Shown here in pieces: positions 4,148 to 64,000 of a stretch of DNA of 64,000 nt. A program made the position numbers and the translations under genes. The notes below the pieces were generated by a model. It saw nothing but the letters and a program-made list of their open reading frames with translations. It was not told where the DNA came from and searched no databases. The stretch is from an uncultured Rickettsiales bacterium (GTDB lineage Bacteria > Pseudomonadota > Alphaproteobacteria > Rickettsiales > CAZNNM01): NCBI GenBank assembly GCA_964574415.1, contig CAZNNM010000002.1, forward strand, positions 311,141-375,140, in the 5' to 3' direction. Each line of letters starts with the position of its first letter. Position 1 is the first letter of the stretch.

Positions 4148-4297
4148 TATAAAATACGCCACACCCTCTAAAAAGTTAAGGCTTCCTTTACCCTCTTTGG
4201 CGTAAAATACAAGGAGATATTGTAATTACAAATTGCCAAATTGGCCAAAATGTAATACATTTCTTAGTATAATGCCTTTTAGAATTGTATAGTAGTA

Positions 4298-5761
4298 ATG
4301 ACATATACTATCCTCATTGTTGATGACGATCCGAATCAGCAACGTATTGCTGAGCATATCCTGCGCGATAAAATGGAATATAATACCATTGTCGTAGGCG
4401 GCGGTAAGGAAGCGATTGATATCCTTAGCTCTGAACGAGCCCATACTATTGATCTGGTGCTGCTTGATCTCTCTATGCCGCAAGTTAGCGGGATGGATGT
4501 GCTGCGTGCTGTCAAACCGCTCAAGCGCACTCCACCGATTATCGTGCGCACTGCACATGACGATGTGGATCTTGCGGTTGAAGCGATGAAAGCCGGTGCG
4601 GTGGATTTTGTGACCAAGCAAGATGGTATCCAAAAACTGCAAACCTCCATCCATAATGCACTACGCCTTTATGCTGTTAGCGATGAATTACTGCGTTTGA
4701 AACGTAGCATTGGTGCGCAAGTTACCTTCTCTAATATTATTGGCGAAAGTGCCATCATCAACGAAACCATTGCCCTGGGCCGAAAAGCGGGCCGCTCGAA
4801 TATCCCCGTCTGCATTCAAGGGGAAAGCGGTGTGGGTAAAGAATTACTCGCACAGGCCATTCATAGCGATAGTGACCGCGCGCACAAGCCATTTGTAGCC
4901 GTAAACTGTGGTGCCATTCCTGAAAACCTGGTAGAGAGCATTCTCTTCGGCCATGAAAAAGGAGCATTTACAGGGGCGATTGAAAAAAGCATCGGTAAAT
5001 TCCGCGAAGCGGAAGGCGGCACATTGTTCCTGGATGAGGTGGGAGAATTAAGCCCTAATATCCAAGTGAAACTCTTGCGTGCATTGCAAGAAGGCGAAGT
5101 AGAATCCGTTGGCGGCAAACAACCAGTCAAAGTGGATATCCGCGTCATCTCTGCGACCAATAAAGATTTAGCCGAACGTGTCAAACGTGCTGAATTCCGT
5201 GAGGATTTATATTACCGCCTGCATGTATTCCCTATCATGGTTCCACCACTGCGTGACCGTAAGGATGATATTCCATTAATGATCGACTACTTCTGCAAGC
5301 GCTTTGCCGCGGAAGAAGAAAAACCCATTATCGCTGTGACCGAACGCGCGCGGAACGTGCTGATCAATTACCAATGGCCTGGGAATATACGCGAGTTGAA
5401 GAATGTGATTTTCCGTGCTGTGGTATTAAGCGATAATGAGTATCTGGATGTTGCCGACTTCCCGCATATCGTCCATCAGCTAGAAGTCTCCCAACACCGC
5501 CAAACCGCACAGCAAATCGCGACCTATACACGCTCATCTGATACTGATGAAGCTGCGATTTCCACCGTGGATGCTTCTGGTCACTTTATGACACTGGGCA
5601 AAATGGAAGAGGAAGTGATTCGCTCTGCGATGAAGTTCTATAATGGCCGCATTTCTGAAGTAGCCCGCCGTCTAGGCATTGGCCGTTCAACGCTCTACCG
5701 AAAACTCACTGAGATGGGATTGCATGAATACCGTCCTGGTGAGGATGATAAAGATGAGTAG
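4298..5761 (+). CDS. Sigma-54-dependent response regulator (REC-AAA-HTH), possibly TacA-like
   Basis: REC domain (VDDD, DLSMP), GESGVGKE Walker A, GAFTGA, C-terminal ARRLGIGRSTLYRKL Fis-type HTH. Confidence 0.92.
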   Translation: MTYTILIVDDDPNQQRIAEHILRDKMEYNTIVVGGGKEAIDILSSERAHTIDLVLLDLSMPQVSGMDVLRAVKPLKRTPPIIVRTAHDDVDLAVEAMKAGAVDFVTKQDGIQKLQTSIHNALRLYAVSDELLRLKRSIGAQVTFSNIIGESAIINETIALGRKAGRSNIPVCIQGESGVGKELLAQAIHSDSDRAHKPFVAVNCGAIPENLVESILFGHEKGAFTGAIEKSIGKFREAEGGTLFLDEVGELSPNIQVKLLRALQEGEVESVGGKQPVKVDIRVISATNKDLAERVKRAEFREDLYYRLHVFPIMVPPLRDRKDDIPLMIDYFCKRFAAEEEKPIIAVTERARNVLINYQWPGNIRELKNVIFRAVVLSDNEYLDVADFPHIVHQLEVSQHRQTAQQIATYTRSSDTDEAAISTVDASGHFMTLGKMEEEVIRSAMKFYNGRISEVARRLGIGRSTLYRKLTEMGLHEYRPGEDDKDE

Positions 5762-6666: not shown

Positions 6667-7248
6667 ATGAATCCCTTCTCTAAACGCAATCTCATATTTT
6701 TTGGCATTGCTGCTGTGGTGATCATAGCAAGCTTTGCGTTGGATTCCCTGACGCCACGCCATGATACTGCTGCCTATTCAGGTAAGCTTGAAACTTTAGA
6801 ATTGCTGGAAGCTACTAAACTTCCTAATACCTTACGGGACTATCGCAAGAATGCGGATTTGACACTGGTATTCATGTATACTGGCTGGTGCCCCGTATGC
6901 GAGCGCGCCTTTCCACAAACCATGGCATTGGCAGAGCGTTATAAAAGCGCAGGGCTAGCTGTAATGGGACTTTCAGTGGATAGTGAACCAGGCCGCACTG
7001 AAGCATTCCTCAACCGTAAAGGCGAGATACCTTTTAACAATTATCAAATCGCCGAAGCAGCGCGTGGGGATTTTATGTCCACCCTTGAAACGCTCGGCAT
7101 CACTTACAATAACGGCGTTCCTTACGTCGTATTGCTTGATAAATCTGGCAAAATCATTGCGCAAGGCAATTATACAATTTCCTCTATGGAACGCTTAATT
7201 CAGCCTATGCTGCGCCATAAAGACGCTCTCAAGAAAGACGCTATATAA
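6667..7248 (+). CDS. TlpA-like thiol-disulfide oxidoreductase
   Basis: N-terminal TM anchor, WCPVC motif, [14 protein letters not shown] cis-Pro loop. Confidence 0.85.
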
Positions 7249-51746: not shown

Positions 51747-52935
51747 TGAGTTTTGTATCAAGGAAATCCGCCCACCACTGCATGAGCTTCTTGCGGTCTT
51801 CGAGGTAGATTGCCTTATTGTAGGTACCGCGTACCTTGGATTTTTCCACATGAGCAAGTTGCATTTCGATATGGTCAGGGTTGAAGCCCTTTTCATTCAA
51901 TATGGTGCTGGCAGTATGACGGAAACCATGAGGCGTTGCTTTAGAGGCGGTGAGCTTCTTGACCACTTTGATAAGCCCTACATCGGAAACAGGCTTTTTC
52001 GCACGTGTTCTGCCGGGAAAGAGCAAATCACCATCGCCGGTAATTTTTCGTATTTCCGCAATGGTGGCAAGTGCCTGCTGTGATAATGGTACCATATGCT
52101 CACGCTCGATTTTCATACGCGAAGCAGGAATTACCCACAATTTCTCTTTCTCATTGATTTCAGACCATGTTGCGCCACGTAATTCACCGGGACGCACAAA
52201 GGTCAGCGCAAGGAGCTTCACTGCAAGCTGCATTAGGGAATAATTTTCTGGGTCTTCGATACGTTGTAGGAATTCGGTCAATTCGTCTTCACGCAGATGG
52301 TCACGATTTTTGACCTTATTGCCTTGTATATATTTTGAACGGCCAAGCGCCGGGTTCATATCGCATAACCCTTGCACAATAGCGTGTTCAAAAATAGCCG
52401 TACAATACTGATTGATACGCTTTGCCACATCAGGAGCTTTGCGCTCCTCAATGCGTTTGAGAACACTCATAATATCCGGCACTTTCACTTCAGCGATAGG
52501 CTTCCAGCCGATAACGCTGAACACATCTTTCTCTAACCGGCTTAGAATATTCTTGGCATGCTTTGGTGCCCACACTTGTTTCTTATACCAATCGCGAGCA
52601 ACTACTTCAAAAGTGTTAGCGCTCTCTGTGACTTTCTGCTGATGGTCACTTTTCTTTTTGATATTCGGGTCTACACCCTTTTTGAGAAGCGCTTTTGCCT
52701 CATCCTTTAAGCGCCGTGCATCTGTGAGGCTAATTTTGCCTTCTGTGTTGCCGTATTGGCCAATAGTGAGAATGTTATACTTGCCATTAAATTTGTAGGG
52801 ATACTGCCAGACTTTAGTACCACTTGGTCGTACCAGTAATACCAAACCACCTTCATCATAGAGCTTATAAGGCGTATCCTTAGGTTTAGCGCCACGAATA
52901 GCGGTTTCAGGAAGCTTAGGATTTATCTTTGGCAT
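51721..52935 (-). CDS. P4-like tyrosine integrase with N-terminal arm-binding domain
   Basis: KPKDTPYKLYDEGGL arm domain; RPGE, HGFRH, LAH, YNKAIY catalytic residues. Confidence 0.95.
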   Translation of the reverse strand: MPKINPKLPETAIRGAKPKDTPYKLYDEGGLVLLVRPSGTKVWQYPYKFNGKYNILTIGQYGNTEGKISLTDARRLKDEAKALLKKGVDPNIKKKSDHQQKVTESANTFEVVARDWYKKQVWAPKHAKNILSRLEKDVFSVIGWKPIAEVKVPDIMSVLKRIEERKAPDVAKRINQYCTAIFEHAIVQGLCDMNPALGRSKYIQGNKVKNRDHLREDELTEFLQRIEDPENYSLMQLAVKLLALTFVRPGELRGATWSEINEKEKLWVIPASRMKIEREHMVPLSQQALATIAEIRKITGDGDLLFPGRTRAKKPVSDVGLIKVVKKLTASKATPHGFRHTASTILNEKGFNPDHIEMQLAHVEKSKVRGTYNKAIYLEDRKKLMQWWADFLDTKLNEEKREAA

Positions 52936-53100
52936 AGCGGGCACTTCTATAGGGTATATTCATACCCCATACCCTATCATATACCCTAAAAAATGCAAGA
53001 TGCGGACGTGTCCACATGTATCCACACGGACTAAAAGCCACTTTAATATGCTGTTTTTTCTTGATTTAAAATCTTATTTGGAAGTACTTGGAAGTAAGTT

Positions 53101-53145
53101 TGGTTGCGGGGGCAGGATTTGAACCTGCGGCCTTCAGGTTATGAG
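53101..53145 (-). pseudogene. Partial tRNA-fMet(CAT): 3' 45 nt att-site duplication, not an intact tRNA
   Basis: Minus strand CTCATAACCTGAAGGCCGCAGGTTCAAATCCTGCCCCCGCAACCA; the 5' half (D arm, acceptor 5' strand) is absent. Confidence 0.9.
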
Positions 53146-53343
53146 TGGTGCTTGGGGCATTTCTCCCCGCTTACTTTGTTTTCTTTGTGTTTCTGCAAAG
53201 CGTTGTTTTTACTGGATAAATGGCAGTTATCATGCGCTTAGTGTTTCTACCGGCTGCGCCGTGATTTTCTGCCTCTTGCTTCCATAGTGCTTCCACGGAA
53301 GCAGGCAACCGCAGCCCATAATTGAAACGAAAAGAGGTTGCCA

Positions 53344-54513
53344 ATGCCAAAACTGACCAAGCGGTTTATAGATGCCGCAGAAATACAATGCAAAGACTAT
53401 TTCATCTTTGATTCCGAGCTGCCCTGCTTTGGGGTGCGGGTCATGCCATCGGGCCGTAAGTCCTACGTGATTCAATATCGGGCCGAGCGAAAAAAGATTC
53501 GGCGCAAGAGCCTTGGTATGCATGGAGTGGTTCCGCTGGAGGAAGCTCGGAAGAAAGCCTTCAAAATTCTGGCGGCTGTGCAATCGGGCGATGATCCTGT
53601 CGGAGAGGAACGCGCCAAGCAATATGCACTGACCGTCAACGACCTTGCGGAGCGATTCATAGAGGAACACGTGGATGTGCATTTGAAACCGCGCACTGCT
53701 GATGGCTACAAACGCAACCTTAAGAAATTCATCCTGCCTCAGATTGGCCATCTGAAGATTACGGATGTGACGCGAGCCGATATATCGGCATTTCACCATA
53801 CGCGTCGCAAATCGCCTTACGAGGCGAACCGGTGTTTGGAGATCATATCCAAAATGTTTAATCTGGCTGAGATGTGGGGGCTGCGTCCGGATGGCACCAA
53901 TCCTCGTCGCCATATCAAGAAATACCCTGAAAAGAAGCGCGAACGGTTTTTGACCCCGGACGAAACCAAGCGCTTGGGTGCCACGCTGAAACAGATGCAT
54001 GCAGAAGGCGTGGAATCGCACTCCGCAGTCAACTGCATCAAACTGTTGTTGCTGACCGGGTGTCGCCTGAGCGAAATACAAACCCTGCAATGGAAATTCA
54101 TCGACTGGGCTGACTCTACGATCAAATTGCCTGATTCTAAAACCGGCGCGAGAGTCATTTATGCTGGTGAGCATGTGTTGGACGTGCTGCGGGCTATCAA
54201 AGCGCACCCTGACACACCTGCCGACAATCCTTATGTGATTTACGGAACGCTTGAGGGGGCGTACCTCACTGATATGCAAAAGCCGTGGCGGCGCATCCGC
54301 AAGCGTGCCGGTCTGGAAGATGTGCGCATCCATGACCTGCGTCATAGTTTTGCCTCCTATGCAGTTAGCCAAGGCATGAGCCTGCCTATGATAGGAAAGC
54401 TGCTCGGCCACACACAGGTGCAAACCACGGCACGCTATGCCCATCTTATGTCCGACCCGATCAAACAAGCCGCCGGTCAGGTGTCTGGTAATATTGCTGG
54501 GCTGGTATCGTGA
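53344..54513 (+). CDS. Tyrosine integrase (alphaproteobacterial type with arm-binding domain)
   Basis: FDSELPCFGVRVMPSGRKSY arm domain; TGCRLSE, HDLRH, LGH, TARY. Confidence 0.95.
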   Translation: MPKLTKRFIDAAEIQCKDYFIFDSELPCFGVRVMPSGRKSYVIQYRAERKKIRRKSLGMHGVVPLEEARKKAFKILAAVQSGDDPVGEERAKQYALTVNDLAERFIEEHVDVHLKPRTADGYKRNLKKFILPQIGHLKITDVTRADISAFHHTRRKSPYEANRCLEIISKMFNLAEMWGLRPDGTNPRRHIKKYPEKKRERFLTPDETKRLGATLKQMHAEGVESHSAVNCIKLLLLTGCRLSEIQTLQWKFIDWADSTIKLPDSKTGARVIYAGEHVLDVLRAIKAHPDTPADNPYVIYGTLEGAYLTDMQKPWRRIRKRAGLEDVRIHDLRHSFASYAVSQGMSLPMIGKLLGHTQVQTTARYAHLMSDPIKQAAGQVSGNIAGLVS

Positions 54514-54612
54514 ATTCAGGTTTTATTCTATCCCGGTGGATAGACTCAAATACAACTGAACCACCTCGACACCACAATACCCGCAAAGCCCTGTCCTGAC
54601 TAGAGGAAGTTG

Positions 54613-54636
54613 CCCGCGCTACCGGAGCGCGGGTTT
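54613..54636 (+). terminator. Possible terminator hairpin between convergent integrase and HTH genes
   Basis: CCCGCGCT-accgg-AGCGCGGG-TTT. Confidence 0.5.
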
Positions 54637-54674
54637 CCCATGAAGATGATAGACTCGTTTTTGGATGAATTCAG

Positions 54675-55265
54675 CTATGTAACAGTGTAAAATCCGTTCT
54701 TCCGCGCCCCGTTGTAGCAGATAGCGTTATGCTCCAACATGCTGGCGATGTCACGTTTGGCGGTCTTATGGCTCACCCACCACTGCGTGGCAATATCATC
54801 GGCTTTTAGTTTCTTTCCTCTCTGTAATTCACCGATGAACCATAGCTGACGATGGTTCAATTTGATAGCCACATCCAGATTGACCATCACATTTATAGGG
54901 ACATATTTGTCCCTATAAACTGGGTTTTCCGGTCTGCTAAGTGCCGTTTTAGGGTGCATTTTTTCGGGTATGTTTTCGGCTAAACAAACCTCCCACACAT
55001 CCGCACGACCGATCATCTCCAGCAGTCCTTTAAGCACCTGCGGATACACTCCGGCCAGCATGATTAAATGCGCGGATTTCGGCGCATTGATTGCCTGACA
55101 CCACTTATTGATTGTGTGCAAATTAGCGCCTGTAATGCGCCCAATTTCTTTCACCACGGAAGTGTCATCCTGATGCTCGTGACGCAGGGCGTTGGCCACC
55201 ATGGTTGCCACTGATTGGTCATCAATAGACGATAGTAAAACTTGGCTAAAATTCTGAAAAGACAT
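54675..55265 (-). CDS. Putative DNA-binding protein with XRE-like N-terminal and winged-HTH C-terminal domains
   Basis: KEIGRITGANLHTINKW; ADDIATQWWVSHKTAKRDIASM...GARKNGFY. Confidence 0.65.
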   Translation of the reverse strand: MSFQNFSQVLLSSIDDQSVATMVANALRHEHQDDTSVVKEIGRITGANLHTINKWCQAINAPKSAHLIMLAGVYPQVLKGLLEMIGRADVWEVCLAENIPEKMHPKTALSRPENPVYRDKYVPINVMVNLDVAIKLNHRQLWFIGELQRGKKLKADDIATQWWVSHKTAKRDIASMLEHNAICYNGARKNGFYTVT

Positions 55266-55359
55266 GTAATCGCTCCTTTTGTTAAAATGATGGAAAGGAG
55301 CATTTTCGCTGGCGTTTCAGTGAATGCCGAAGAATTGCATATAAAACAGGATCATTCAG

Positions 55360-56928
55360 TTGAGAGATTTATTTGGCTTGGCAAACGGAGATACGAAAAC
55401 CCCGTCGATCAACATGGCGGCGATGTATGTGCGCATGTCCACTGACCACCAGAAATACTCAACGGAAAATCAGGCCGAAGCGATCAAGGAATATGCCAAA
55501 CGCAAAAAGCTGGATATCGTTAAGACCTATGCCGATGAAGGCAAAAGTGGATTGAATCTGGCGGGGCGTGATGCGCTCAAAAGCCTGATTGATGATGTGC
55601 AGAATAATCGTGCCGAGTTCAAAGTGATTTTAGTGCTGGATGTCACGCGCTGGGGACGGTTTCAGGATGCGGATGAAAGCGCCTATTATGAGTATATCTG
55701 CCGCCGCGCTGGCATTGACGTGCAGTATGTGGCCGAGCAGTTTGAAAATGACGGCAGCCCAGTATCCAACATTGTAAAAAGCGTGAAGCGCTCAATGGCT
55801 GGCGAGTATAGCCGTGAGCTATCCAACAAGGTGTTCGCTGGTCAATGCCGCCTAATCGAGAAAGGCTTCCGGCAAGGTGGTCCCGCTGGCTTCGGCCTGC
55901 GCCGCTTGTTGATTGATGAGCATGGCAATCCCAAAGCGGAGTTGAAACAAGGTGAGCATAAAAGCCTGCAAACGGATCGAGTGGTCCTGATCCCCGGTCC
56001 TGATGAGGAAATCAATATCGTGCGCTGGATTTACCATGCCTTCATTCATGACGGCATGAAAGAAACAGAGATCGCCCATTCCCTGAATCAGCGGGGCATT
56101 CTCACGGATTTGGACAGGCCGTGGACACGCGGCACAGTGCATCAGGTGCTCACCAATGAAAAATATATTGGCAACAACGTCTTTAACCGCACATCGCATA
56201 AGCTGAAAAAGCGCCGAGTGGAAAACTCACCGGATATGTGGGTGCGTGCCGATGGCGTGTTCGACGCGATTGTCGATCCCAGCGACTTTTACACAGTGCA
56301 AGGCATTTTACGCGAGCGCAGCCGCAGGTTCTCCGATGACGAGATGTTGGAAAAATTGCGTTATTTGCATGAGCGTCAAGGCTGGCTCTCTGGCATTATC
56401 ATTGACGAGCAAGAGGATATGCCATCCAGCAGTGCATACCAGCATCGTTTCGGAAGTTTGCTTCGAGCTTACAAGCTGATCGGCTATACCCCTGACCGGG
56501 ATTATCGCTATATCGAGATCAACCGCCGTCTGCGCACACTTTACGCAGAAACGGTCGAGGACACCATTCGCAAGATACGCGATCTGGGCGCATCCATCCA
56601 CCGGGAGGTGGGTTCGGACTTGCTCTATCTCAATAATGAGCTGACCGTTTCCATTATCATTTGCCGCTGCATACAGACACCCACCGGAGCCTATCGCTGG
56701 AAGATACGGTTAGATAGCGGGCTGGAGCCAGACATCACCGTGGCCATACGCATGGATGCCTGCAACGAAAATCCACTGGATTATTACCTATTGCCATCAT
56801 TGGACATTGAGAATCCGAAGATTCGGCTGTCAGAAAACAACGGTTTGGCGCTTGATGCCTATCGCTTTGATGATCTCGAATACTTCCTGATGCTGGCTGA
56901 ACGCACACCAATCAGGGAGGCCGCATGA
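55360..56928 (+). CDS. Large serine recombinase-family protein
   Basis: YVRMST catalytic Ser, YADEGKSG, DVTRWGRFQ, GFRQGG..GFG, TVHQVLTNEKYIG; start may be ATG 55414. Confidence 0.92.
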   Translation: MRDLFGLANGDTKTPSINMAAMYVRMSTDHQKYSTENQAEAIKEYAKRKKLDIVKTYADEGKSGLNLAGRDALKSLIDDVQNNRAEFKVILVLDVTRWGRFQDADESAYYEYICRRAGIDVQYVAEQFENDGSPVSNIVKSVKRSMAGEYSRELSNKVFAGQCRLIEKGFRQGGPAGFGLRRLLIDEHGNPKAELKQGEHKSLQTDRVVLIPGPDEEINIVRWIYHAFIHDGMKETEIAHSLNQRGILTDLDRPWTRGTVHQVLTNEKYIGNNVFNRTSHKLKKRRVENSPDMWVRADGVFDAIVDPSDFYTVQGILRERSRRFSDDEMLEKLRYLHERQGWLSGIIIDEQEDMPSSSAYQHRFGSLLRAYKLIGYTPDRDYRYIEINRRLRTLYAETVEDTIRKIRDLGASIHREVGSDLLYLNNELTVSIIICRCIQTPTGAYRWKIRLDSGLEPDITVAIRMDACNENPLDYYLLPSLDIENPKIRLSENNGLALDAYRFDDLEYFLMLAERTPIREAA

Positions 56929-57821
56929 AACAAAAAGACCGCAAAGCTAAAATTAAGATGATCCCCATTGAACGGATCAACGTGTTGAATCCGCGTGTAC
57001 GGAGTCAGAAAATCTTTGTCGATATGGCAGAGAATATCACCAAGGTGGGATTGAAACGCCCGATCACCGTAACACCCACCGGCTCTGCTGGTGAAGGAAA
57101 AGAATATGATCTGGTGTGTGGCCAAGGAAGGATCGAGGCATTTCAGGCTTGTGGGCAAACGCACATCCCGGCAATCGTGATTGATGCTTCAGAGGAAGAA
57201 GCGCTCATCATGAGTCTTGTGGAGAATCTGGCTCGCAGGCAGCATCGCTCGCTTGATCTGCTGCATGGCATCGAGGTGTTACAGCAAAAAGGCTATGATG
57301 CGAAAACCATCGCCAAGAAAACTGGCCTCACTGAAAACTATGCCAAAGCGGTGCTGGATTTATTGGAGCTGGGGGAAGAACGGCTTTTGTCTGCGGTGGA
57401 AGCTGGTCACATGCCGGTCAGCGTGGCTGTTACCATTGCCAATTCGCCCAATGACGAGCAGAAAGCGTTGCAGGAAGCCTATGAAAATAACGAGCTGCGC
57501 GGCGGCAAGCTGAAAATGGCGAAGCGCCTACTGGAAACCCGCAAGCAGCGCGGCAAAGGGATTCGCCATCAATCTGGCAAAGGTGGCCGCAGCCGCAAGG
57601 CCGGTGCCATCTCTTCGCAGGATGTCCTCAAAATCTATCAGAAGGAAGTGGATCGCAAGCGATTGCTCACGCGCAAAGCGGATGCCGTCAGCAGCCGGAT
57701 GCTGTTCATCACCGAGGCGTTGCGCCGTCTTTACAGGGAAGATCATTTCACCACGCTGCTGAAAGCTGAGGGGCTGACAACCATGCCGAAGCAACTCTCC
57801 GCATTATTGGAGGCCAAATGA
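56925..57821 (+). CDS. ParB/Srx N-terminal domain protein with RepB-type C-terminus (copy 1)
   Basis: VGLKRPITV, LVCGQGRIEAF, SLVENLARR; ATGA overlap with the recombinase. Confidence 0.85.
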   Translation: MKQKDRKAKIKMIPIERINVLNPRVRSQKIFVDMAENITKVGLKRPITVTPTGSAGEGKEYDLVCGQGRIEAFQACGQTHIPAIVIDASEEEALIMSLVENLARRQHRSLDLLHGIEVLQQKGYDAKTIAKKTGLTENYAKAVLDLLELGEERLLSAVEAGHMPVSVAVTIANSPNDEQKALQEAYENNELRGGKLKMAKRLLETRKQRGKGIRHQSGKGGRSRKAGAISSQDVLKIYQKEVDRKRLLTRKADAVSSRMLFITEALRRLYREDHFTTLLKAEGLTTMPKQLSALLEAK

Positions 57822-58744
57822 CCAAAGACAAACAGATCAACGCATTACCGGATGGAGGCATTGCCATCGGTTTTGATAGTGACATGGTTACGCTCCGCAT
57901 CGACCAGATCGTGCCGATCAAGGTGGTGGCCAACACGCTGCAAAAAAGCTCTAAATATAAGCAGATTCTGTCCTCCATCCGTGAAGTGGGCGTGATCGAA
58001 CCGCCCGTTGTGGTACCGGAAGGAAAATCCAAGGAACGCTTCATTCTGCTTGATGGCCACATGCGTATCGAGGCGCTGAAGGAGCTGGGCAGCGATGAAG
58101 TAGTCTGTCTGATTTCCTCTGACGATGAAGCCTTCACCTATAACAAGCACGTCAACCGCATTTCTCCCATTCAGGAGCACCGTATGATCCGGCGTGCCGT
58201 TGAGCGTGGTGTGCCGGAGGAGAAGATCGCTAAGGCACTCTGTCTTGATGTGAAAAGCATTGTGATGAAGCGCAAATTACTGGACGGCATTTGCCCAGAA
58301 GCCTCTGAGATGCTGAAAGACAAGATGGTGGCCAACGGCGTGTTCCCGATTCTCAAACGCATGAAAGCCTACCGTCAGATTGATGCCATCACCCTGATGA
58401 ACGATACCGGCACTTATTCCGTGTCATACGCCAAGGCATTACTCGCGGCTACGCCCAAAGATCAGCTAGTAGAGCCAGATAAACCAAAGCGGATTAAGGG
58501 GCTGGACGCGGAACAGATGGCACGCATGGAGAGCGAAATGGCCAGTCTCCAGCGTGAATACAGATTGATCGAAGAAAACTACGGAACAGATGTGCTGAAT
58601 CTGACGCTTGCCAAAGGTTATCTTGGGTCGTTGCTCGGTAATGCGCGTGTGGTGCGTTACCTTGCCCAGCATCATCCGGAAATGCTCTCCGAGTTTCAAA
58701 AGATCACCGAGATTACGTCGCTGGATGGTGGCAAGGCGGCGTAG
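57818..58744 (+). CDS. ParB/Srx N-terminal domain protein with RepB-type C-terminus (copy 2)
   Basis: VGVIEPPVV, LLDGHMRIEAL, TYNKHVNRI; ATGA overlap. Confidence 0.85.
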   Translation: MTKDKQINALPDGGIAIGFDSDMVTLRIDQIVPIKVVANTLQKSSKYKQILSSIREVGVIEPPVVVPEGKSKERFILLDGHMRIEALKELGSDEVVCLISSDDEAFTYNKHVNRISPIQEHRMIRRAVERGVPEEKIAKALCLDVKSIVMKRKLLDGICPEASEMLKDKMVANGVFPILKRMKAYRQIDAITLMNDTGTYSVSYAKALLAATPKDQLVEPDKPKRIKGLDAEQMARMESEMASLQREYRLIEENYGTDVLNLTLAKGYLGSLLGNARVVRYLAQHHPEMLSEFQKITEITSLDGGKAA

Positions 58745-58839
58745 CTGAAGCAGGAATGTGTGGGCGGGCTGGACGCTGGAATCACATTTAACGGGGACCG
58801 GGACCCATAAGCGCCGGGACCGCAGGAGAAGCCGTTCGG

Positions 58840-58942
58840 GGATGTGCTCCGGTCATGGAGCGAGTGCGGTGGTGGGAATGACGGCGAACCCGTTCACAGC
58901 CCACTAGGTCGGCTTGAGTTTTCGCTGACCGTTTACGCATCC
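58840..58942 (+). ncRNA. Candidate structured RNA (multi-stem junction)
   Basis: Hand-folded stems: 58840-45/58937-42, 58846-50/58857-61, 58870-76/58900-06 with inner 58880-84/58890-94, and 58907-13/58924-30; strand and expression unproven. Confidence 0.4.
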
Positions 58943-58992
58943 ACACCGGCATGATTGGTAGCTTCAGGCCATGATGCCGGTGTGCTTAATTT
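58942..58992 (+). terminator. Long hairpin at the GC-rich/AT-rich boundary
   Basis: CACACCGGCAT / ATGCCGGTGTG 11-bp stem, then CTTAATTTT. Confidence 0.55.
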
Positions 58993-59074
58993 TAAGCTTA
59001 TAAGAAGTGTATACAAAACAACTTAGGTCACTATAATCAGCACTTTAACATGGAACAATTTGCTGGATATAAAA

Positions 59075-60244
59075 ATGAGCCTTGAAGAATTGCTCAAGCG
59101 TAGCCTTGAGGAAGAAGAAGTTTCTACAGTTAGCAATGCATTTGGAGGCGCAAAAGCGTCTGGGAACACCAAAAGCTATTCTGTCGCAAGAATACGTGAC
59201 TTACTAATCTATAACGCCCAAGATCATAATTGTGAATTTGCTGAAATTATAAAAAGATGCCAGGCTATTTTGCCAGCAAAGCTTTTCAGAAGCTCCATAG
59301 GAAATTTGATACGGTTTTCTTTTCTTATTGAACTGACCAACTTAACGGTAGGGTCTACAAAAATGAAAACCAGATGGCTACCCGGACTTATCTTGATGCC
59401 TCAGGATGGATCATTTGAACCAATCCAAGGCTCATTTGAGCCAGGTAACGATCCTAGGTCCTCTTCCTTTGAAGACTGTTTAGCGGTTTTTGTAAACTGC
59501 ATAAGAATATTATTGGAAAAAGTTTCTTCTGATCAATCACTTGTGACAAAGCTTGAGCAATTATCCGCTACTACGAGTTTTCCCTATGAGTTTGTATTTG
59601 ATTATGTCGACACAGCTTTATTTCCTATTCATGTAAAATCAAACGTATCCTGGGTGTTTAATGAAGACATAGAGTGGCTTCTATCGGCACGACCAATTAT
59701 CTGGCCTTGCTTAACAAAGCAACAAAAAGACAAAATTCAGACAAAAACTTACAAAACTGATAGGGCCTTAACTGGCAAAGACAAAACTAATCGTGCCAAA
59801 AGGTGGGAAGTATTATCAGCAGACTTCCAGCACGCTTCATTGACCCAGTGCTGGAGTGTTGAAAGAAAGCTTCTTGGTGAATTAGTTGGATTTGAAGGCT
59901 TTCCACAAGATACAAAGCAGCTATTAATTCAGAATGGCGTGCAAACTGAATTTGCAATAAGCCGATGTCCGGTTACCTTAGAGCCACTACAATTCTCTGT
60001 GCTCCTAAATCCTGCTGTTCACGGGAGATCTGATTATCAAGTCGGCCACTTACACCCGCTGAAAAAAGGTGGAAGGCATGATGGTGAAAATGTTTGTTGG
60101 CAATCTTGCGATGGAAACCGTATTCAAGGAGACTTGATGATAGAAGAGATAGTCGAACTCTTAGATAAGATTATGCAACGAAAGATAGAGCTTGGAGGCT
60201 CTCATATTGCCATTGTTAATCAAGAAGTGGCAAAAGACGGCTGA
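59075..60244 (+). CDS. Putative HNH (beta-beta-alpha-Me) restriction endonuclease
   Basis: C-terminal CPVT...GHLHPLKKGGRHDGENVCWQSCDGN; directly upstream of an N6 methyltransferase. Confidence 0.7.
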   Translation: MSLEELLKRSLEEEEVSTVSNAFGGAKASGNTKSYSVARIRDLLIYNAQDHNCEFAEIIKRCQAILPAKLFRSSIGNLIRFSFLIELTNLTVGSTKMKTRWLPGLILMPQDGSFEPIQGSFEPGNDPRSSSFEDCLAVFVNCIRILLEKVSSDQSLVTKLEQLSATTSFPYEFVFDYVDTALFPIHVKSNVSWVFNEDIEWLLSARPIIWPCLTKQQKDKIQTKTYKTDRALTGKDKTNRAKRWEVLSADFQHASLTQCWSVERKLLGELVGFEGFPQDTKQLLIQNGVQTEFAISRCPVTLEPLQFSVLLNPAVHGRSDYQVGHLHPLKKGGRHDGENVCWQSCDGNRIQGDLMIEEIVELLDKIMQRKIELGGSHIAIVNQEVAKDG

Positions 60245-60360
60245 AATTTTGTTATCAATCTTAAAAAGACAAACTTCTGCTGGAATCTTCTAAAAAAACA
60301 GTTTATGTTTTTGATGAAATGAAAAACATAAACTGAAATTTGCAAATCGAGAGGCATGCT

Positions 60361-62313
60361 ATGAAAGGGGTTCAGCTAGATTTATCCACAGATGTTGAAA
60401 TGCATGAGGTTTACCGAAGAATAAGAAATTATCTTGCAGGTAGAGTTATTGGCATAACTAGAGATAAAGCGTTGCTCCATGAAGTAGTCAAATGCCTTTT
60501 CTGCAAAATAGAATTATCGGAAAACTTCGCACAAGGACTCTCGGGAAGCGATGAAGAGAACGCAAAAACTTATCGCAAATCATTTTCTAATCTTAAAGAA
60601 AGACTTCCTCATATCTTCGGTGAAGACGAAGAAATTTTACTAGATCCTATTTCTATTAGCTACGTTGATAGAGAGTTATCGTTACTAAATCTTTCTGACC
60701 CGCAAAAAGACCCTCTCGGTGAACTGTACCAGGCATTTATTGGTTCTGATATGCGTATGGCGGAAGGTCAGTTTTTTACCCCCCATCCAGCTATAGCATG
60801 GCTTGTTGAAGCAATAGATTTAAAGCCCGGTGAGAAAGTAATAGACCCTGCTTGCGGACCAGGAGGTTTTCTCAGCTATGCAGCAAGATTTTTATTACGT
60901 AGCGGTGTTGATAGAAAAAGTGTTAGCGCAAATTTATTTGGCATTGAAAAAGATGAGTATCTTTCGCAACTAGCTAATGCTCACATAGCGATGGCTACCT
61001 TAGAAAAGGCGAATATTTTTTGTGCCGATTCAATAGAGAAAAAAGATAATAAAGGAAATCGCCTCAGTTTAGATATGGAGGGGCAATTTGATGTTGTGTT
61101 GGCAAATCCGCCTTTTGGAGCGAAAATAAAAACGGGTTCCGAGGAGGTTAGAAAAACTTTTGACCTGGCTTATAAATGGAAATTAGATAAGAAAACAGGT
61201 AGAATTCTCAAGACTGATATTTTGCAAACAAATACACCACCTCAAATTTTATTTATTGAACTCTGCCTTAAGCTTCTCAAGCCAGGTGGCAGAATGGGAA
61301 TCGTTGTTCCCGAAAGCATGATATCAAACTCTTCAACCAGTTATGTAGTTCAGTATATTCGTGATAATGCTCAAATATCAGCTGTATGCGGCATGCCAGA
61401 GTCCTTATTCAAAACAAGTGGCAAAGGTGGAACTCATACTAAAACATGCCTATTGATTGCAACTAAATCATCCAAAAAGAAAGGCACAAATAATTCCGTA
61501 TTTATGGCTGAAGCTCAGTGGTGTGGGCATGATAGTAGAGGAAATAAAATCCCCAATAATGATTTGCCGATTACGTTGAAAAATTACAAGCAGCGCAAAG
61601 AAAGTGATAAGTCATACAGCCATACAGGTTATATGGTCGCACAGGATGATATTCGAGAGAATATTTTAGCCCCAAGATATTATAATCCAGAGCCAATCGA
61701 GAATATGCGCTTATTGTCAGAAACACATGATATTATCTCTATTGAAGAATTAGTACGAGATGGCGTTATCTCTTTTTCAACAGGTGATGAAGTGGGTAAA
61801 TTGGCCTACGGAACGGGGCCAATTCCTTTTGTAAGGACTTCGGATATTTCTAATTGGGAGGTAAAGCTAGACCCAAAACATGGAGTTTCCGAGGAAATCT
61901 ACTCGTCCTTATCGAAAAGACAGGATGTTCGGGAAGGTGACTTGCTAATGGTTCGTGATGGAACCTATTTAATAGGCGCTTGTGCATATATATCAAAGTA
62001 TGATGAGAAAATGGTATATCAGAGCCATCTTTATAAAATTCGTATACACAAAAAAGAGGTTCTTTCTCCATTTCTACTACTAGCCCTTTTGTCATGTGAG
62101 CCAGTTTTAATGCAAATTAAGGCGAAGCGATTTACTCAAGACATTATTGATACACTCGGGAAACGAGTTAATGAGTTGCTTTTACCTATCCCCAAATCAT
62201 CAACACATAAGAAACAAATTGAAGATATGGTAAAAACCTCCGTAGAGGACAGAATAGAGGCTCGTGAATTGGCTCGTTCTGCAAAGACTTTGATTCTATC
62301 AAAGGCTGCTTAG
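60361..62313 (+). CDS. N6-adenine DNA methyltransferase (HsdM-like) fused to a single HsdS-like target-recognition domain
   Basis: GQFFTP, IDPACGPGGFL, NPPFG, then IPFVRTSDI...GDLLMVRDG...LLLPIP TRD pattern. Confidence 0.88.
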   Translation: MKGVQLDLSTDVEMHEVYRRIRNYLAGRVIGITRDKALLHEVVKCLFCKIELSENFAQGLSGSDEENAKTYRKSFSNLKERLPHIFGEDEEILLDPISISYVDRELSLLNLSDPQKDPLGELYQAFIGSDMRMAEGQFFTPHPAIAWLVEAIDLKPGEKVIDPACGPGGFLSYAARFLLRSGVDRKSVSANLFGIEKDEYLSQLANAHIAMATLEKANIFCADSIEKKDNKGNRLSLDMEGQFDVVLANPPFGAKIKTGSEEVRKTFDLAYKWKLDKKTGRILKTDILQTNTPPQILFIELCLKLLKPGGRMGIVVPESMISNSSTSYVVQYIRDNAQISAVCGMPESLFKTSGKGGTHTKTCLLIATKSSKKKGTNNSVFMAEAQWCGHDSRGNKIPNNDLPITLKNYKQRKESDKSYSHTGYMVAQDDIRENILAPRYYNPEPIENMRLLSETHDIISIEELVRDGVISFSTGDEVGKLAYGTGPIPFVRTSDISNWEVKLDPKHGVSEEIYSSLSKRQDVREGDLLMVRDGTYLIGACAYISKYDEKMVYQSHLYKIRIHKKEVLSPFLLLALLSCEPVLMQIKAKRFTQDIIDTLGKRVNELLLPIPKSSTHKKQIEDMVKTSVEDRIEARELARSAKTLILSKAA

Positions 62314-62756
62314 TTGGTTAAATCATAGATTTTAGCCTCAGCCTCTCGCCGCTGCACCAACCCTCGCAGCTTCCGGCCACCGGCCCAGACCCAGCGCATG
62401 AACTCGGCTGGGACTTCCTCATGCTCCTCTCGATTGACCTTGCGGCGCAGGGTTGATCGCTGCAGTGCGCCGGAGCCGAGATTGAAGGTGAATGACACCA
62501 ACGCATCAAACTGGCCGTCTGTGAGTGGCACTTTGATCAGTCGCAGGACAGCATGCTCTGCGATGCCAACGTCTTTGATCAGCAACGCCTCGCCAGCCGC
62601 CTCGGAAATGCCGCCTGCGAACATCTCGGCCTCGCCCGGACGCAGCAAGTGGCCATATCCAATGGTGGGCAGTCCGGCGGCATCCAGATAGATTTCCGGC
62701 TCAAAGCCTTCAAACCGCTTGATGAGATCAATGCCTTGTTTGGTGATCTGGCGCAT
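62310..62756 (-). CDS. Phage lysozyme (GH24 endolysin)
   Basis: FEG...YLDAAGLPTIGYGH, QFDALVSFTFNLG, GLVQRREAE. Confidence 0.93.
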   Translation of the reverse strand: MRQITKQGIDLIKRFEGFEPEIYLDAAGLPTIGYGHLLRPGEAEMFAGGISEAAGEALLIKDVGIAEHAVLRLIKVPLTDGQFDALVSFTFNLGSGALQRSTLRRKVNREEHEEVPAEFMRWVWAGGRKLRGLVQRREAEAKIYDLTN

Positions 62757-62757
62757 G

Positions 62758-63183
62758 TCATCGCCCCTGACGCAGTTTGCTCATGGCGCGTTGGCCAAAA
62801 TAGAAGGAGATAATGCCTGCAAAGATCGCCTGATCTTCTGCTGTCCAGAGCAGCCAAGGCAGATCGGCAGAAAACTGCATTATCTTTACCACGGCATAAA
62901 GAATGAAAAAGCTGTAGGCGATGACAGGGCGCACAGTGCCGATCAGTGCGTCCACCCATTTGATGCCGGTGTGATAAGTTTTGTAGAGTGCTCGGCTTTC
63001 GGCAATATCGGCCTGCACGTTAATTTCTTCGAGGCGGTTCGTGTGACCTTGGCGTTGTTGTTCCATCTGCATTTGCAGGATCGCCAGCTCATGCTTCCGG
63101 TCAGCCGCATCGCGCCATATTTTCAGCAGATCTGGAAACGCCGAGCTGATAAACCCCAGTAATGCTCCAATTAATGTGATCAT
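62758..63183 (-). CDS. Phage membrane protein, holin-like
   Basis: Hydrophobic N-terminus plus two C-terminal TMs (VRPVIAY..., ISFYFGQR); directly upstream of the lysozyme. Confidence 0.6.
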   Translation of the reverse strand: MITLIGALLGFISSAFPDLLKIWRDAADRKHELAILQMQMEQQRQGHTNRLEEINVQADIAESRALYKTYHTGIKWVDALIGTVRPVIAYSFFILYAVVKIMQFSADLPWLLWTAEDQAIFAGIISFYFGQRAMSKLRQGR

Positions 63184-63184
63184 A

Positions 63185-63433
63185 TCAGCCTCCCTGCATG
63201 ATGGTTTTTATGCCCTGCCACAGCGCCACCAGCGCTCCGGTAAGCGCGGCGGTAATGGCTGAGCGTTTAATCCACTTGATGACTTCATCCGACCCGGTGC
63301 GGGATTTGCGCAGGTAGATCATGTCGGCCTGCATGGCATTGGGATCGTTGGTATCCACGCCGTATTTGGTCAAAGCATCCTCGATGCCCTCACGCACTGC
63401 TGTGCGGATCGCTTTTTTAAGTTCTTCATCCAT
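63185..63433 (-). CDS. Small phage membrane protein with C-terminal TM
   Basis: 82 aa, hydrophobic AITAALTGALVALW; tightly packed in the lysis region. Confidence 0.6.
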   Translation of the reverse strand: MDEELKKAIRTAVREGIEDALTKYGVDTNDPNAMQADMIYLRKSRTGSDEVIKWIKRSAITAALTGALVALWQGIKTIMQGG

Positions 63434-63440
63434 GACAACC

Positions 63441-64000
63441 TCACCAATTCCATGGGCCGTGTGGCTTGAGATACTGGACGTTCAGGCGCACCACGCCGGT
63501 GCTGAAAGAACCACTGTCCGGTGTGAGGAGCAGTGGCGTGTCGCTGTAATAGGTCACCGGGTGGTAGCTCATACCGATATTGGTGGAATCCTGAGCCTTA
63601 CCGATACCGTTGCCGTAGCGGGAGGTGTCACCCGATACGCCCACACCGAACGTGGTCACGGTGCCGGTGATGGCGGTGATCACCCGCGTATTGACGGCAA
63701 TCACGCTGGAACGGTCAGGAATATTGGTGGTCGTGCTGGTGTCGGTGCTTAAATCGACATCCTCCTGCCAGCTCTGCACACGCAGATACTCGCCGCTATC
63801 CTTCATGATCAGGCCAAACGGCACCCAAGCAGAGCCGTCATAGGCCATGCGGGTTCCAAGTGCCTCGACCACTGCATCCATCCATTTGAACGGCGCGTAA
63901 AAAACCCAGCCGCCGGCGAGGTATTGCGCTAGCTCATTCGCATGGCTTGTAAAATCACCGGTGGGACTGGTGCCAACGATATAGATATCTCCCAAGGTCG
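63441..64000 (-). CDS. DUF2793-like phage tail-associated protein (5'-partial)
   Basis: GDIYIVGTSPTGDF...GGWVFYAP pattern; frame open to the window edge. Confidence 0.7.
   Translation of the reverse strand, partial: TLGDIYIVGTSPTGDFTSHANELAQYLAGGWVFYAPFKWMDAVVEALGTRMAYDGSAWVPFGLIMKDSGEYLRVQSWQEDVDLSTDTSTTTNIPDRSSVIAVNTRVITAITGTVTTFGVGVSGDTSRYGNGIGKAQDSTNIGMSYHPVTYYSDTPLLLTPDSGSFSTGVVRLNVQYLKPHGPWNW

What the first reader, a model, noticed from the sequence alone, without database searches (positions are those of the whole stretch)
59075..62313. HNH nuclease plus fused HsdM-HsdS methyltransferase: a Type I/II hybrid-like restriction system
The methyltransferase has Type I HsdM-like motifs and one C-terminal TRD, but there is no HsdR motor and no nuclease domain at its N-terminus, unlike Type IIG. 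A dimer with a single TRD would read a symmetric interrupted site, as in AhdI-type systems intermediate between Types I and II (established concept; assignment is inference). The partner is a 389-aa protein with an unrecognised N-terminal region and a C-terminal HNH motif lacking canonical CxxC pairs. R precedes M and no controller gene is visible. This could be a new specificity or a non-RM defence system.
Basis: partly seen in the sequence, partly recalled or inferred. Interest (0 to 1): 0.62.

Follow-up and report, generated by a model that had tools for sequence, protein, structure and literature searches.

The report
Unannotated DraIII-like restriction-modification pair in prophage
Two adjacent genes in an AT-rich cassette inside a prophage encode an ordinary two-gene restriction-modification system: a DNA-cutting enzyme distantly related to DraIII, from a family that public records call hypothetical, and its protective adenine methyltransferase.

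Summary
Window 59075-60244 encodes a 389-aa protein (R). Window 60361-62313 encodes a 650-aa gamma-class N6-adenine methyltransferase with one fused C-terminal target-recognition domain (M). Both lie in a 38.6% GC cassette between a recombinase-ParB-ParB module and the prophage lysis genes.

R has no match in Pfam, NCBIfam or PADLOC. Its residues about 238-371 are a DraIII-like beta-beta-alpha-metal (HNH) domain. Foldseek gives DraIII (4L0K) as the only confident hit, and hhalign gives 94% probability. The general base H325 and metal ligand N348 are invariant, but three of the four DraIII zinc ligands are replaced. The N-terminal part of about 220-240 residues matches no solved or viral structure.

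In all 20 relatives' loci examined, across several phyla, R lies next to an M homologue, in three gene orders. Nine of these loci have a C-protein gene upstream of R. The TRD of M is always better conserved than its catalytic half.

A genuine DraIII homologue on a Phaeobacter plasmid pairs with a homologous M (34% identity; TRD 43%) and a homologous C gene.

Verdict: a Type II, probably IIP, system related to DraIII, probably reading a gapped palindrome. It is a new member of a known kind; specificity and activity are untested.

The parts
59010..59037 (+). Promoter-like site (TATACA-16 nt-TATAAT) inside the AT-rich cassette, 38 bp upstream of the R start. It is a candidate promoter for the cassette.
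   Evidence: Consensus scan, 10 of 12 matches. This is a pattern match only. The total number of such sites in the region is no higher than in shuffled sequence.
59075..60244 (+). R gene: 389-aa putative Type II restriction endonuclease from an unannotated family.
   Evidence: ORF. No hit in Pfam, NCBIfam, PADLOC or PDB by sequence. 316 homologues at E <= 1e-3, the best 120 at 48-74% identity, almost all unnamed or 'hypothetical'. AF2 model pLDDT 84.5, pTM 0.85.
59075..59785 (+). N-terminal region of R (aa 1-237): helices plus a four-stranded sheet (aa 84-121, motif RFSFLIELTNL.VGSTKMKTRW), followed by the start of an invariant basic stretch KTYKTDRALTGKDKTNRAKRWEVL (aa 224-247). Presumed DNA-recognition part.
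   Evidence: Conservation. Secondary structure, with low confidence at 229-242. No structural match in PDB or BFVD. The recognition function is inferred.
59786..60187 (+). DraIII-like beta-beta-alpha-metal (HNH) nuclease and dimerisation domain of R (aa 238-371). H325 (nt 60047) is the presumed general base, N339 the structural Asn, and N348 (nt 60116) the presumed Mg ligand.
   Evidence: Foldseek top hit DraIII 4L0K, probability 1.00, E 1.4e-3. Family profile against PDB aligns H325 to DraIII H183 and N348 to N202. Pfam DraIII PF21586 is hit by 5 of 31 relatives, best E 6.5e-5. hhalign probability 93.9%, E 1.6e-7. DraIII catalytic residues are from PMC3996161.
60299..60335 (+). 17-nt inverted repeat (hairpin) in the R-M spacer, 25 bp upstream of the M start. 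Possible attenuator or operator that sets the R:M ratio.
   Evidence: Hairpins of different sequence lie at the same position in Acinetobacter and Ectothiorhodospira relatives. The function is inferred.
60361..62313 (+). M gene: 650-aa gamma-class N6-adenine DNA methyltransferase with one fused TRD.
60703..61662 (+). N6_Mtase catalytic domain, with AdoMet motif DPACGPGGF (nt 60844-60870) and catalytic motif NPPFG (nt 61105-61119).
   Evidence: Pfam PF02384, E 2.9e-37. Motif positions. PDB relatives are Type I HsdM proteins and BsaXI.
61780..62262 (+). Single HsdS-like target-recognition domain followed by C-terminal helices.
   Evidence: PADLOC Specificity_I, E 5.6e-12. NCBIfam MAD5 S-subunit model, E 1.7e-11. 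In every relative this part is better conserved than the catalytic part.

Best explanation
This is a complete two-gene Type II restriction-modification system, most likely Type IIP. It is carried as an AT-rich accessory ('moron') cassette in a prophage.

M is a gamma-class methyltransferase with one fused TRD. I infer that it acts as a homodimer and puts N6-methyl groups on an adenine in each half of a palindromic, probably gapped, site.

[quoted passage not shown] It is extended by an N-terminal region of about 220-240 residues of unknown fold, which presumably reads the bases. I infer that R dimerises through the DraIII-like core and cuts both strands of unmethylated sites with one Mg2+ per active site (H325 as general base, N348 as ligand). 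By analogy with DraIII this would probably leave 3' overhangs.

In a lysogen the system would protect the host and prophage against superinfecting DNA, and would make loss of the prophage costly.

Shown here: gene integrity, domain identities, homology to the DraIII system, and strict R-M linkage. Inferred: dimer state, site type, cleavage geometry and anti-phage effect.
For: 1. M is a bona fide gamma N6A methyltransferase with a fused TRD.
2. The C-terminal core of R is DraIII-like by four independent routes. These are the Foldseek top hit 4L0K (probability 1.0), the family profile against PDB, the Pfam DraIII model hit by 5 of 31 relatives, and hhalign at 93.9% probability, E 1.6e-7. The residues aligned with DraIII H183 and N202, which are essential by mutagenesis (PMC3996161), are invariant in 31 diverse family members.
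3. Linkage is complete. In 20 of 20 distinct relatives' loci an M homologue lies next to R: 16 genome or metagenome loci, 2 Acinetobacter plasmids and 2 distant homologues. Three gene orders occur (R>M>, M>R>, R> <M). The hosts span Pseudomonadota, Planctomycetota, Chloroflexota and Latescibacterota, and nothing else in the neighbourhood is conserved.
4. Nine of these loci have a small HTH controller-type gene directly upstream of R, the classic C-R-M layout.
5. The TRD of M is always better conserved than its catalytic half (for example 57% against 46%). This holds even where R has diverged to about 30% identity, as expected for a conserved specificity.
6. A full-length DraIII homologue on Phaeobacter plasmid pP129_f has the same layout. 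Its 630-aa methyltransferase is 34% identical to this M over 596 residues (E 2e-107), with the TRD at 43% and the catalytic part at 33%. Its C protein is 47-48% identical to those of this family. The two systems are therefore homologous as wholes.
7. The carriers are mobile elements: prophages, small plasmids, an integrase island beside smpB, and a position next to GmrSD.
Against: There is no experimental datum for any member: no methylome, no cleavage assay and no REBASE comparison.

The window's R itself does not reach any Pfam model. Its similarity to DraIII is remote (21-26% identity over about 120-130 residues).

Three of the four ligands of the essential C-terminal zinc site of DraIII are replaced (C160 by T301, H198 by S344, C201 by G347), and the N-terminal zinc site has no counterpart. 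The fold must therefore be stabilised differently.

This copy has no controller gene. How R is held back on entry into a new host is not explained.

A single-TRD gamma methyltransferase can also work as a monomer on a continuous site, as M.TaqI does (own knowledge; the review lists M.TaqI on a continuous site). The gapped-palindrome prediction therefore rests on homology alone.

The AF2 model of M was too poor to use.
Confidence: 0.85

Rival explanations
1. R has no sequence specificity of its own and works only in a complex with M. The TRD of M would supply recognition to both activities, as in a motor-less Type I or Type IIB-like enzyme, or a methyltransferase-tethered nuclease. The large N-terminal region of R would then be a docking domain for M, not a DNA reader.
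For: The N-terminal region of R has no recognisable DNA-binding fold. R and M never occur apart in the loci examined. The TRD stays at 57% identity while R drifts to about 30%. M scores best against MAD2 and Type I-like models.
Against: The closest characterised relative, DraIII, is a self-sufficient Type IIP homodimer. It is expressed separately from its methyltransferase (PMC3996161). The genes are often convergent, with separate promoters and a C protein that controls R, which is the layout of independent Type II enzymes. No docking tail or extra domain is visible on M.
Confidence: 0.09
2. The pair is a non-RM defence or addiction module, for example a reduced MADS- or BREX-like system, or a toxin-antitoxin pair. 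In this reading M signals or neutralises R by some means other than protecting sites.
For: M gives its best NCBIfam hit to the MADS methyltransferase MAD2 (E 2.2e-66) and its TRD hits MAD5. R is unannotated everywhere.
Against: The MAD2 score is 224 bits against a cut-off of 720, and the PglX scores are far below cut-off. No other MADS or BREX gene is nearby. Only the two genes, sometimes with a C gene, are conserved across loci. The whole system is homologous to a DraIII-type R-M locus.
Confidence: 0.03
3. The window's copy is inactive or decaying: an orphan methyltransferase with a dead nuclease, kept only as prophage baggage.
For: There is no controller gene. No RNA data exist; only DNA runs from bioreactor metagenomes hold the sequence.
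Against: Both ORFs are full length. The window's R keeps every one of the 86 invariant columns of the family alignment, and the window's M keeps every invariant column of its four-sequence alignment. The catalytic motifs of both proteins are intact. Other prophage-borne copies also lack the C gene yet keep both genes intact.
Confidence: 0.03

Closest known systems
DraIII restriction-modification system (R.DraIII, Type IIP, CACNNN^GTG; PDB 4L0K; Pfam PF21586) and its uncharacterised homologue on Phaeobacter gallaeciensis plasmid pP129_f
   Same: The catalytic and dimerisation core is a beta-beta-alpha-metal fold, with the general-base His and the metal-binding Asn conserved. The partner is a gamma N6A methyltransferase of about 630-650 aa with one fused TRD. 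It is homologous to this M (34% overall, TRD 43%), and the C protein is homologous too.
   Different: R is 389 aa against 227-231 aa. Its first 220-240 residues or so have no counterpart. DraIII's N-terminal zinc site is absent, and three of the four ligands of the C-terminal zinc site are replaced. The window protein does not reach the Pfam DraIII model. Specificity is unknown. This copy has no C gene.
AhdI ('Type IIH', GACNNN^NNGTC) and other Type II systems with Type I-like gamma methyltransferases (M.DrdI, M.XcmI, M.TaqI)
   Same: An HsdM-like methyltransferase core is combined with an HsdS-like TRD, next to a separate, motor-less endonuclease (review PMC4081073).
   Different: In AhdI, M and S are separate subunits that form an M2S2 complex; here they are one chain. 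No sequence comparison with R.AhdI was possible here.
Other HNH Type II endonucleases (KpnI, PacI, Hpy99I, SphI, NlaIII, MnlI, Eco31I)
   Same: The beta-beta-alpha-metal active site.
   Different: No detectable sequence similarity, and none of the PADLOC nuclease models match. Most of these enzymes carry CxxC/CxxC zinc sites, which are absent here.
Type I (EcoKI, StySJI) and Type IIG/IIB (MmeI-like, BsaXI) enzymes
   Same: The methyltransferase core and TRD are of the same lineage (PDB hits 2okc, 8w0p, 2y7c).
   Different: There is no HsdR motor, no second TRD, and no nuclease fused to the methyltransferase.

Membership tests
Type II restriction-modification system (orthodox, separate R and M) | Adjacent, separate genes for a DNA methyltransferase and an endonuclease that travel together | tested here: met
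   20 of 20 relatives' loci have both genes side by side, in three gene orders.
Type II restriction-modification system (orthodox, separate R and M) | The methyltransferase has intact AdoMet-binding and catalytic motifs | tested here: met
   DPACGPGGF and NPPFG are present; Pfam N6_Mtase E 2.9e-37.
Type II restriction-modification system (orthodox, separate R and M) | The endonuclease has a recognised nuclease active site | tested here: met
   A beta-beta-alpha-metal domain with invariant H325, N339 and N348.
Type II restriction-modification system (orthodox, separate R and M) | Mg2+-dependent cleavage at a fixed position in or near a defined site, blocked by the cognate methylation | not testable with these tools
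   Needs biochemistry and a methylome.
DraIII family (Pfam PF21586) | Match to the family model at its curated threshold | tested here: not met
   The window protein has no Pfam hit at E <= 0.01. Only 5 of 31 relatives hit the model, with best E 6.5e-5. Homology is seen only at profile or fold level.
DraIII family (Pfam PF21586) | Catalytic His (H183) and Asn (N202) of the HNH motif | tested here: met
   H325 and N348 align with them and are invariant.
DraIII family (Pfam PF21586) | Two structural zinc sites (C4/C22/H28/C32 and C157/C160/H198/C201), all essential in DraIII | tested here: not met
   Only C298 (equivalent to C157) is kept. T301, S344 and G347 replace the other ligands of site 2, and the N-terminal site has no counterpart.
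Type I restriction-modification system | HsdR motor/nuclease subunit and a separate two-TRD HsdS subunit | tested here: not met
   No helicase- or HsdR-like ORF is in the cassette or its flanks. There is a single TRD, fused to M.
Type IIG / IIC single-chain enzymes | A nuclease domain fused to the methyltransferase-TRD chain | tested here: not met
   The N-terminal 120 residues of M are helical and HsdM_N-like, with no nuclease match.
Type IIH (AhdI-like) | Separate M and S subunits forming M2S2, beside a Type IIP-like endonuclease | tested here: not met
   The M and TRD functions lie in one 650-aa chain. The definition is from PMC4081073.
MADS (methylation-associated defence system) | MAD2 methyltransferase at equivalog score, plus the other mad genes | tested here: not met
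   MAD2 scores 224 bits against a cut-off of 720. No other mad genes are present.

The most novel reading that the evidence does not exclude
The N-terminal region of R (about 220-240 residues) would be a DNA-recognition module of a fold not yet seen. It comprises a four-stranded sheet with the RFSFLIELTNL.VGSTKMKTRW motif and an invariant basic loop, KTYKTDRALTGKDKTNRAKRWEVL, that AF2 leaves disordered. Grafted onto a zinc-poor DraIII core, it would give a cleavage specificity not available among characterised enzymes. In the controller-less prophage copies, the R:M balance would be set by the hairpin in the R-M spacer instead of by a C protein.
Probability: 0.3. Interest if true: 0.45.

Novelty: new member of a known kind. 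Interest (0 to 1): 0.3.

Why it matters
The endonuclease family is widespread: 181 representative clusters at 50% identity, from Proteobacteria to Chloroflexota, plus one archaeal MAG. It is carried on prophages and on small Acinetobacter plasmids. Even so, it is labelled 'hypothetical' in the public records seen here, and no model in Pfam, NCBIfam or PADLOC matched it. Defence-system annotators would therefore see only an orphan methyltransferase.

Recognising the family as the R half of a DraIII-related system has three uses:
- It corrects those annotations.
- It gives a distant relative for studying how HNH restriction enzymes acquire recognition domains and lose zinc sites.
- It offers a candidate for a new or improved cutter of gapped palindromes.

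It does not change any concept, because the system is of a well-known kind.

Tried and rejected
- Nucleotide searches of the cassette against E. coli genomes and phage records gave no match. A protein search of R against phage records also gave no match.
- Sequence searches of R against Pfam, NCBIfam, PADLOC and PDB found nothing. PHROGs gave only a weak match to an unnamed family over the HNH motif.
- The BFVD fold search found only generic HNH domains.
- The TRD alone against PDB sequences found nothing usable for predicting specificity.
- The AF2 model of M, built from a four-sequence alignment, failed (pLDDT 48). No fold search of M was therefore made. This was a poor use of the second structure job.
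- Full-text searches for peptide motifs of R, for the Acinetobacter protein accessions, and for CACNNNGTG methylomes gave nothing relevant. A paper on the Acinetobacter plasmid mentions only 'an N6-DNA methylase'.
- No RNA runs hold the sequence, so expression could not be checked.
Site-avoidance analysis and host identification were therefore not possible.
- No direct repeats mark the cassette ends.
- A PD-(D/E)XK reading of the N-terminal sheet was considered. Nothing supports it: there is no fold hit.
- REBASE is not available here, so identity with a named but unpublished enzyme cannot be excluded.
Full report
**Observation**

- R runs 59075-60244 on the + strand (389 aa, ATG start; relatives also begin MSL.../MxF...).
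- M ends at 62313. Its most likely start is the ATG at 60361 (650 aa). That start is preceded by GAGAGG, and relatives align from there.
- The pair occupies a 38.6% GC cassette, from about 58990 to 62313, set in 52-56% GC DNA.

The flanks are prophage DNA.
- On the left lie a tyrosine integrase, a large serine recombinase and two ParB/RepB genes, followed by a GC-rich hairpin at 58942-58984.
- On the right lie the phage lysozyme, whose stop codon overlaps the stop of M, then two small proteins of phage families (PHROGs) of unknown function and a tail-fibre gene.
- The cassette has a promoter-like site of its own at 59010-59037.

**The methyltransferase**

- M matches Pfam N6_Mtase at residues 122-441 (E 2.9e-37) and Eco57I-type methylase models. 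It also matches many PADLOC Type I and Type II methyltransferase models.
- Its C-terminal 170-220 residues match HsdS-type specificity models: PADLOC Specificity_I (E 5.6e-12) and the NCBIfam MAD5 S-subunit model (E 1.7e-11).
- The motif order is that of the gamma class: DPACGPGGF, then NPPFG, then the TRD.
- The closest solved relatives by sequence are Type I HsdM proteins and BsaXI.
- M has no N-terminal nuclease domain, and there is no HsdR gene.
- The MADS and BREX models are hit far below their cut-offs, and no other genes of those systems are present.

**The nuclease**

- R has no hit in Pfam, NCBIfam, PADLOC or PDB by sequence.
- It belongs to a well-populated family. There are 316 word-indexed homologues, the best 120 at 48-74% identity and nearly all 375-400 aa. 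An exhaustive search found 181 representative clusters.
- Where the sources give a name it is almost always 'hypothetical protein'.
- Conservation is unusually strong: 86 invariant columns in 31 diverse sequences.
- An AF2 model built on this alignment is confident (pLDDT 84.5, pTM 0.85).

Four lines of evidence tie the C-terminal part of R to DraIII.
1. In a Foldseek search of PDB, the four chains of DraIII (4L0K) take the top four places, at probability 1.00. Further down come weaker hits to Cas9 and Gme HNH domains, scattered among spurious low-probability matches.
2. A profile of the family finds DraIII as the only PDB sequence hit.
3. Five family members hit the Pfam DraIII model.
4. A profile-profile comparison with DraIII plus a full-length homologue gives 93.9% probability, E 1.6e-7, over R residues 238-371.

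The alignment places invariant H325 on DraIII H183 (general base) and invariant N348 on N202 (Mg ligand). Both are essential in DraIII (PMC3996161). Of DraIII's C-terminal zinc ligands only C157 is kept, as C298. T301, S344 and G347 stand in place of C160, H198 and C201, and all three are themselves invariant.

Residues 1 to about 237 have no structural relative in PDB or BFVD. They contain a four-stranded sheet and an invariant basic stretch (aa 224-247) that the model leaves disordered.

**Linkage**

I examined 20 distinct loci of relatives, spread over several phyla:
- 16 loci from genomes and metagenomes;
- two Acinetobacter plasmids;
- two distant homologues at 34-38% identity.

In every one, a homologue of M lies next to R. 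Three arrangements occur: R>M>, M>R> and convergent. Nothing else in the neighbourhood is conserved.

Nine loci carry a small HTH gene directly upstream of R, often coupled to it. This is the classic controller-R-M layout of Type II systems. The window and the other prophage-borne copies (Chitinibacter, Thiobacillus, Pseudomonas and a Pseudomonadota MAG) lack it.

In every comparison the TRD part of M is better conserved than the catalytic part. This includes a locus where R has drifted to about 30% identity. That pattern fits one conserved specificity across the family.

**Relation to the DraIII system as a whole**

A tblastn search with the C-terminal half of DraIII found a full-length homologue (231 aa) on Phaeobacter gallaeciensis plasmid pP129_f. 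Both zinc sites appear to be kept in that homologue.

That locus has the order HTH - R, convergent with a 630-aa 'N-6 DNA methylase'. The methylase is 34% identical to the window's M over 596 residues (E 2e-107). The TRD is again the best-conserved part, at 43% against 33%. Its C protein is 47-48% identical to C proteins of the present family.

The C, R-core and M components are therefore all homologous between the two systems. The present family looks like a DraIII-type system whose nuclease acquired a large N-terminal region and lost most zinc ligands.

**Mechanism**

The best-supported reading is an orthodox Type II, probably Type IIP, system.
- M, probably as a dimer with one TRD per half-site, methylates an adenine in each half of a palindromic site. 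The site is probably gapped, as in DraIII's CAC-N3-GTG.
- R dimerises through the DraIII-like core and cuts both strands of unmethylated sites, probably leaving 3' overhangs.

Domain identities, residue conservation and linkage are shown. Oligomeric state, site and cut geometry are inferred. A single-TRD gamma methyltransferase can also act as a monomer on a continuous site, as M.TaqI does (own knowledge; the review lists M.TaqI on a continuous site). I put the gapped-palindrome subclaim at about 0.5, against 0.85 for 'Type II R-M with R as the endonuclease'.

The main rival is that R depends on M for specificity (0.09). DraIII's autonomy and the convergent, C-controlled gene layouts argue against it, but nothing excludes it.

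**Comparison and novelty**

The 'Type I/II hybrid' flavour is real but ordinary. The 2014 review (PMC4081073) states that gamma-class adenine methyltransferases accompany many Type II enzymes with continuous or bipartite sites, and that the Type IIH label is rarely used.

What is new is modest. This is an unannotated endonuclease family with a novel N-terminal region and a zinc-poor DraIII core. I rate it a new member of a known kind, interest 0.3.

I saw that note only after my own fold and profile results, and I do not count it as independent evidence.

**Limits**

- REBASE could not be queried, so identity with a named enzyme is not excluded.
- The genome tools were shut.
- The window's DNA occurs only in DNA runs from bioreactor metagenomes, so there is no expression evidence.
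- The AF2 model of M failed.

Noticed in passing
window 60299-60335; L018 about 4270-4320; L021 about 4765-4810; L019 about 7130-7175: In several R>M tandem loci, a strong hairpin lies in the R-M spacer just upstream of the M start. The sequences differ but the position is the same (17-nt arms in the window). It may attenuate read-through or act as an operator that sets the R:M ratio.
   Followed up: partly
L005 8001-9137 and 9485-10633 (Chitinibacter sp. GC72): Two tandem paralogues of R, 78% identical and both apparently intact, lie next to a single M. This could be a recent duplication or a heterodimeric enzyme.
   Followed up: partly
window 55360-58744; L005 13057-16396; L010 9709-13069: The serine recombinase-ParB-ParB module directly abuts this R-M family in three unrelated hosts (the window, Chitinibacter and a Pseudomonas MAG). 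The recombinases are 57-61% identical. The R-M pair may be recurrent cargo beside that module.
   Followed up: partly
window 52000-64000, and loci L005, L007, L008, L010 against L001, L011, L012, L014, L017-L019, L021-L023: The prophage-borne copies of the system, which sit next to a lysozyme gene and/or the ParB module, all lack the controller (C) gene that nine other copies carry.
   Followed up: partly
window 58942-58984: A GC-rich 14-bp-stem hairpin lies at the end of the region after the second ParB gene, immediately before the composition drops to AT-rich.
   Followed up: no
L021 3359-6726 (A. baumannii pA1296_2) and L022 4727-8094 (A. towneri p3SAAt401): Small Acinetobacter plasmids, one of which carries tet(39), hold a complete C-R-M operon of this family. 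Its R gene is annotated 'hypothetical protein', and a published plasmid map labels only the methylase.
   Followed up: partly
L023 1190-3115: A distant member of the family sits next to a GmrSD-type Type IV restriction gene, so the locus lies in a defence island.
   Followed up: no
window 59744-59815 (R aa 224-247): The stretch KTYKTDRALTGKDKTNRAKRWEVL is almost invariant across phyla, yet AF2 predicts it to be disordered (pLDDT below 50 at 229-242). Its NR..RW part aligns with PNRIDRW in the DraIII homologue. It is a likely DNA-contact loop.
   Followed up: partly
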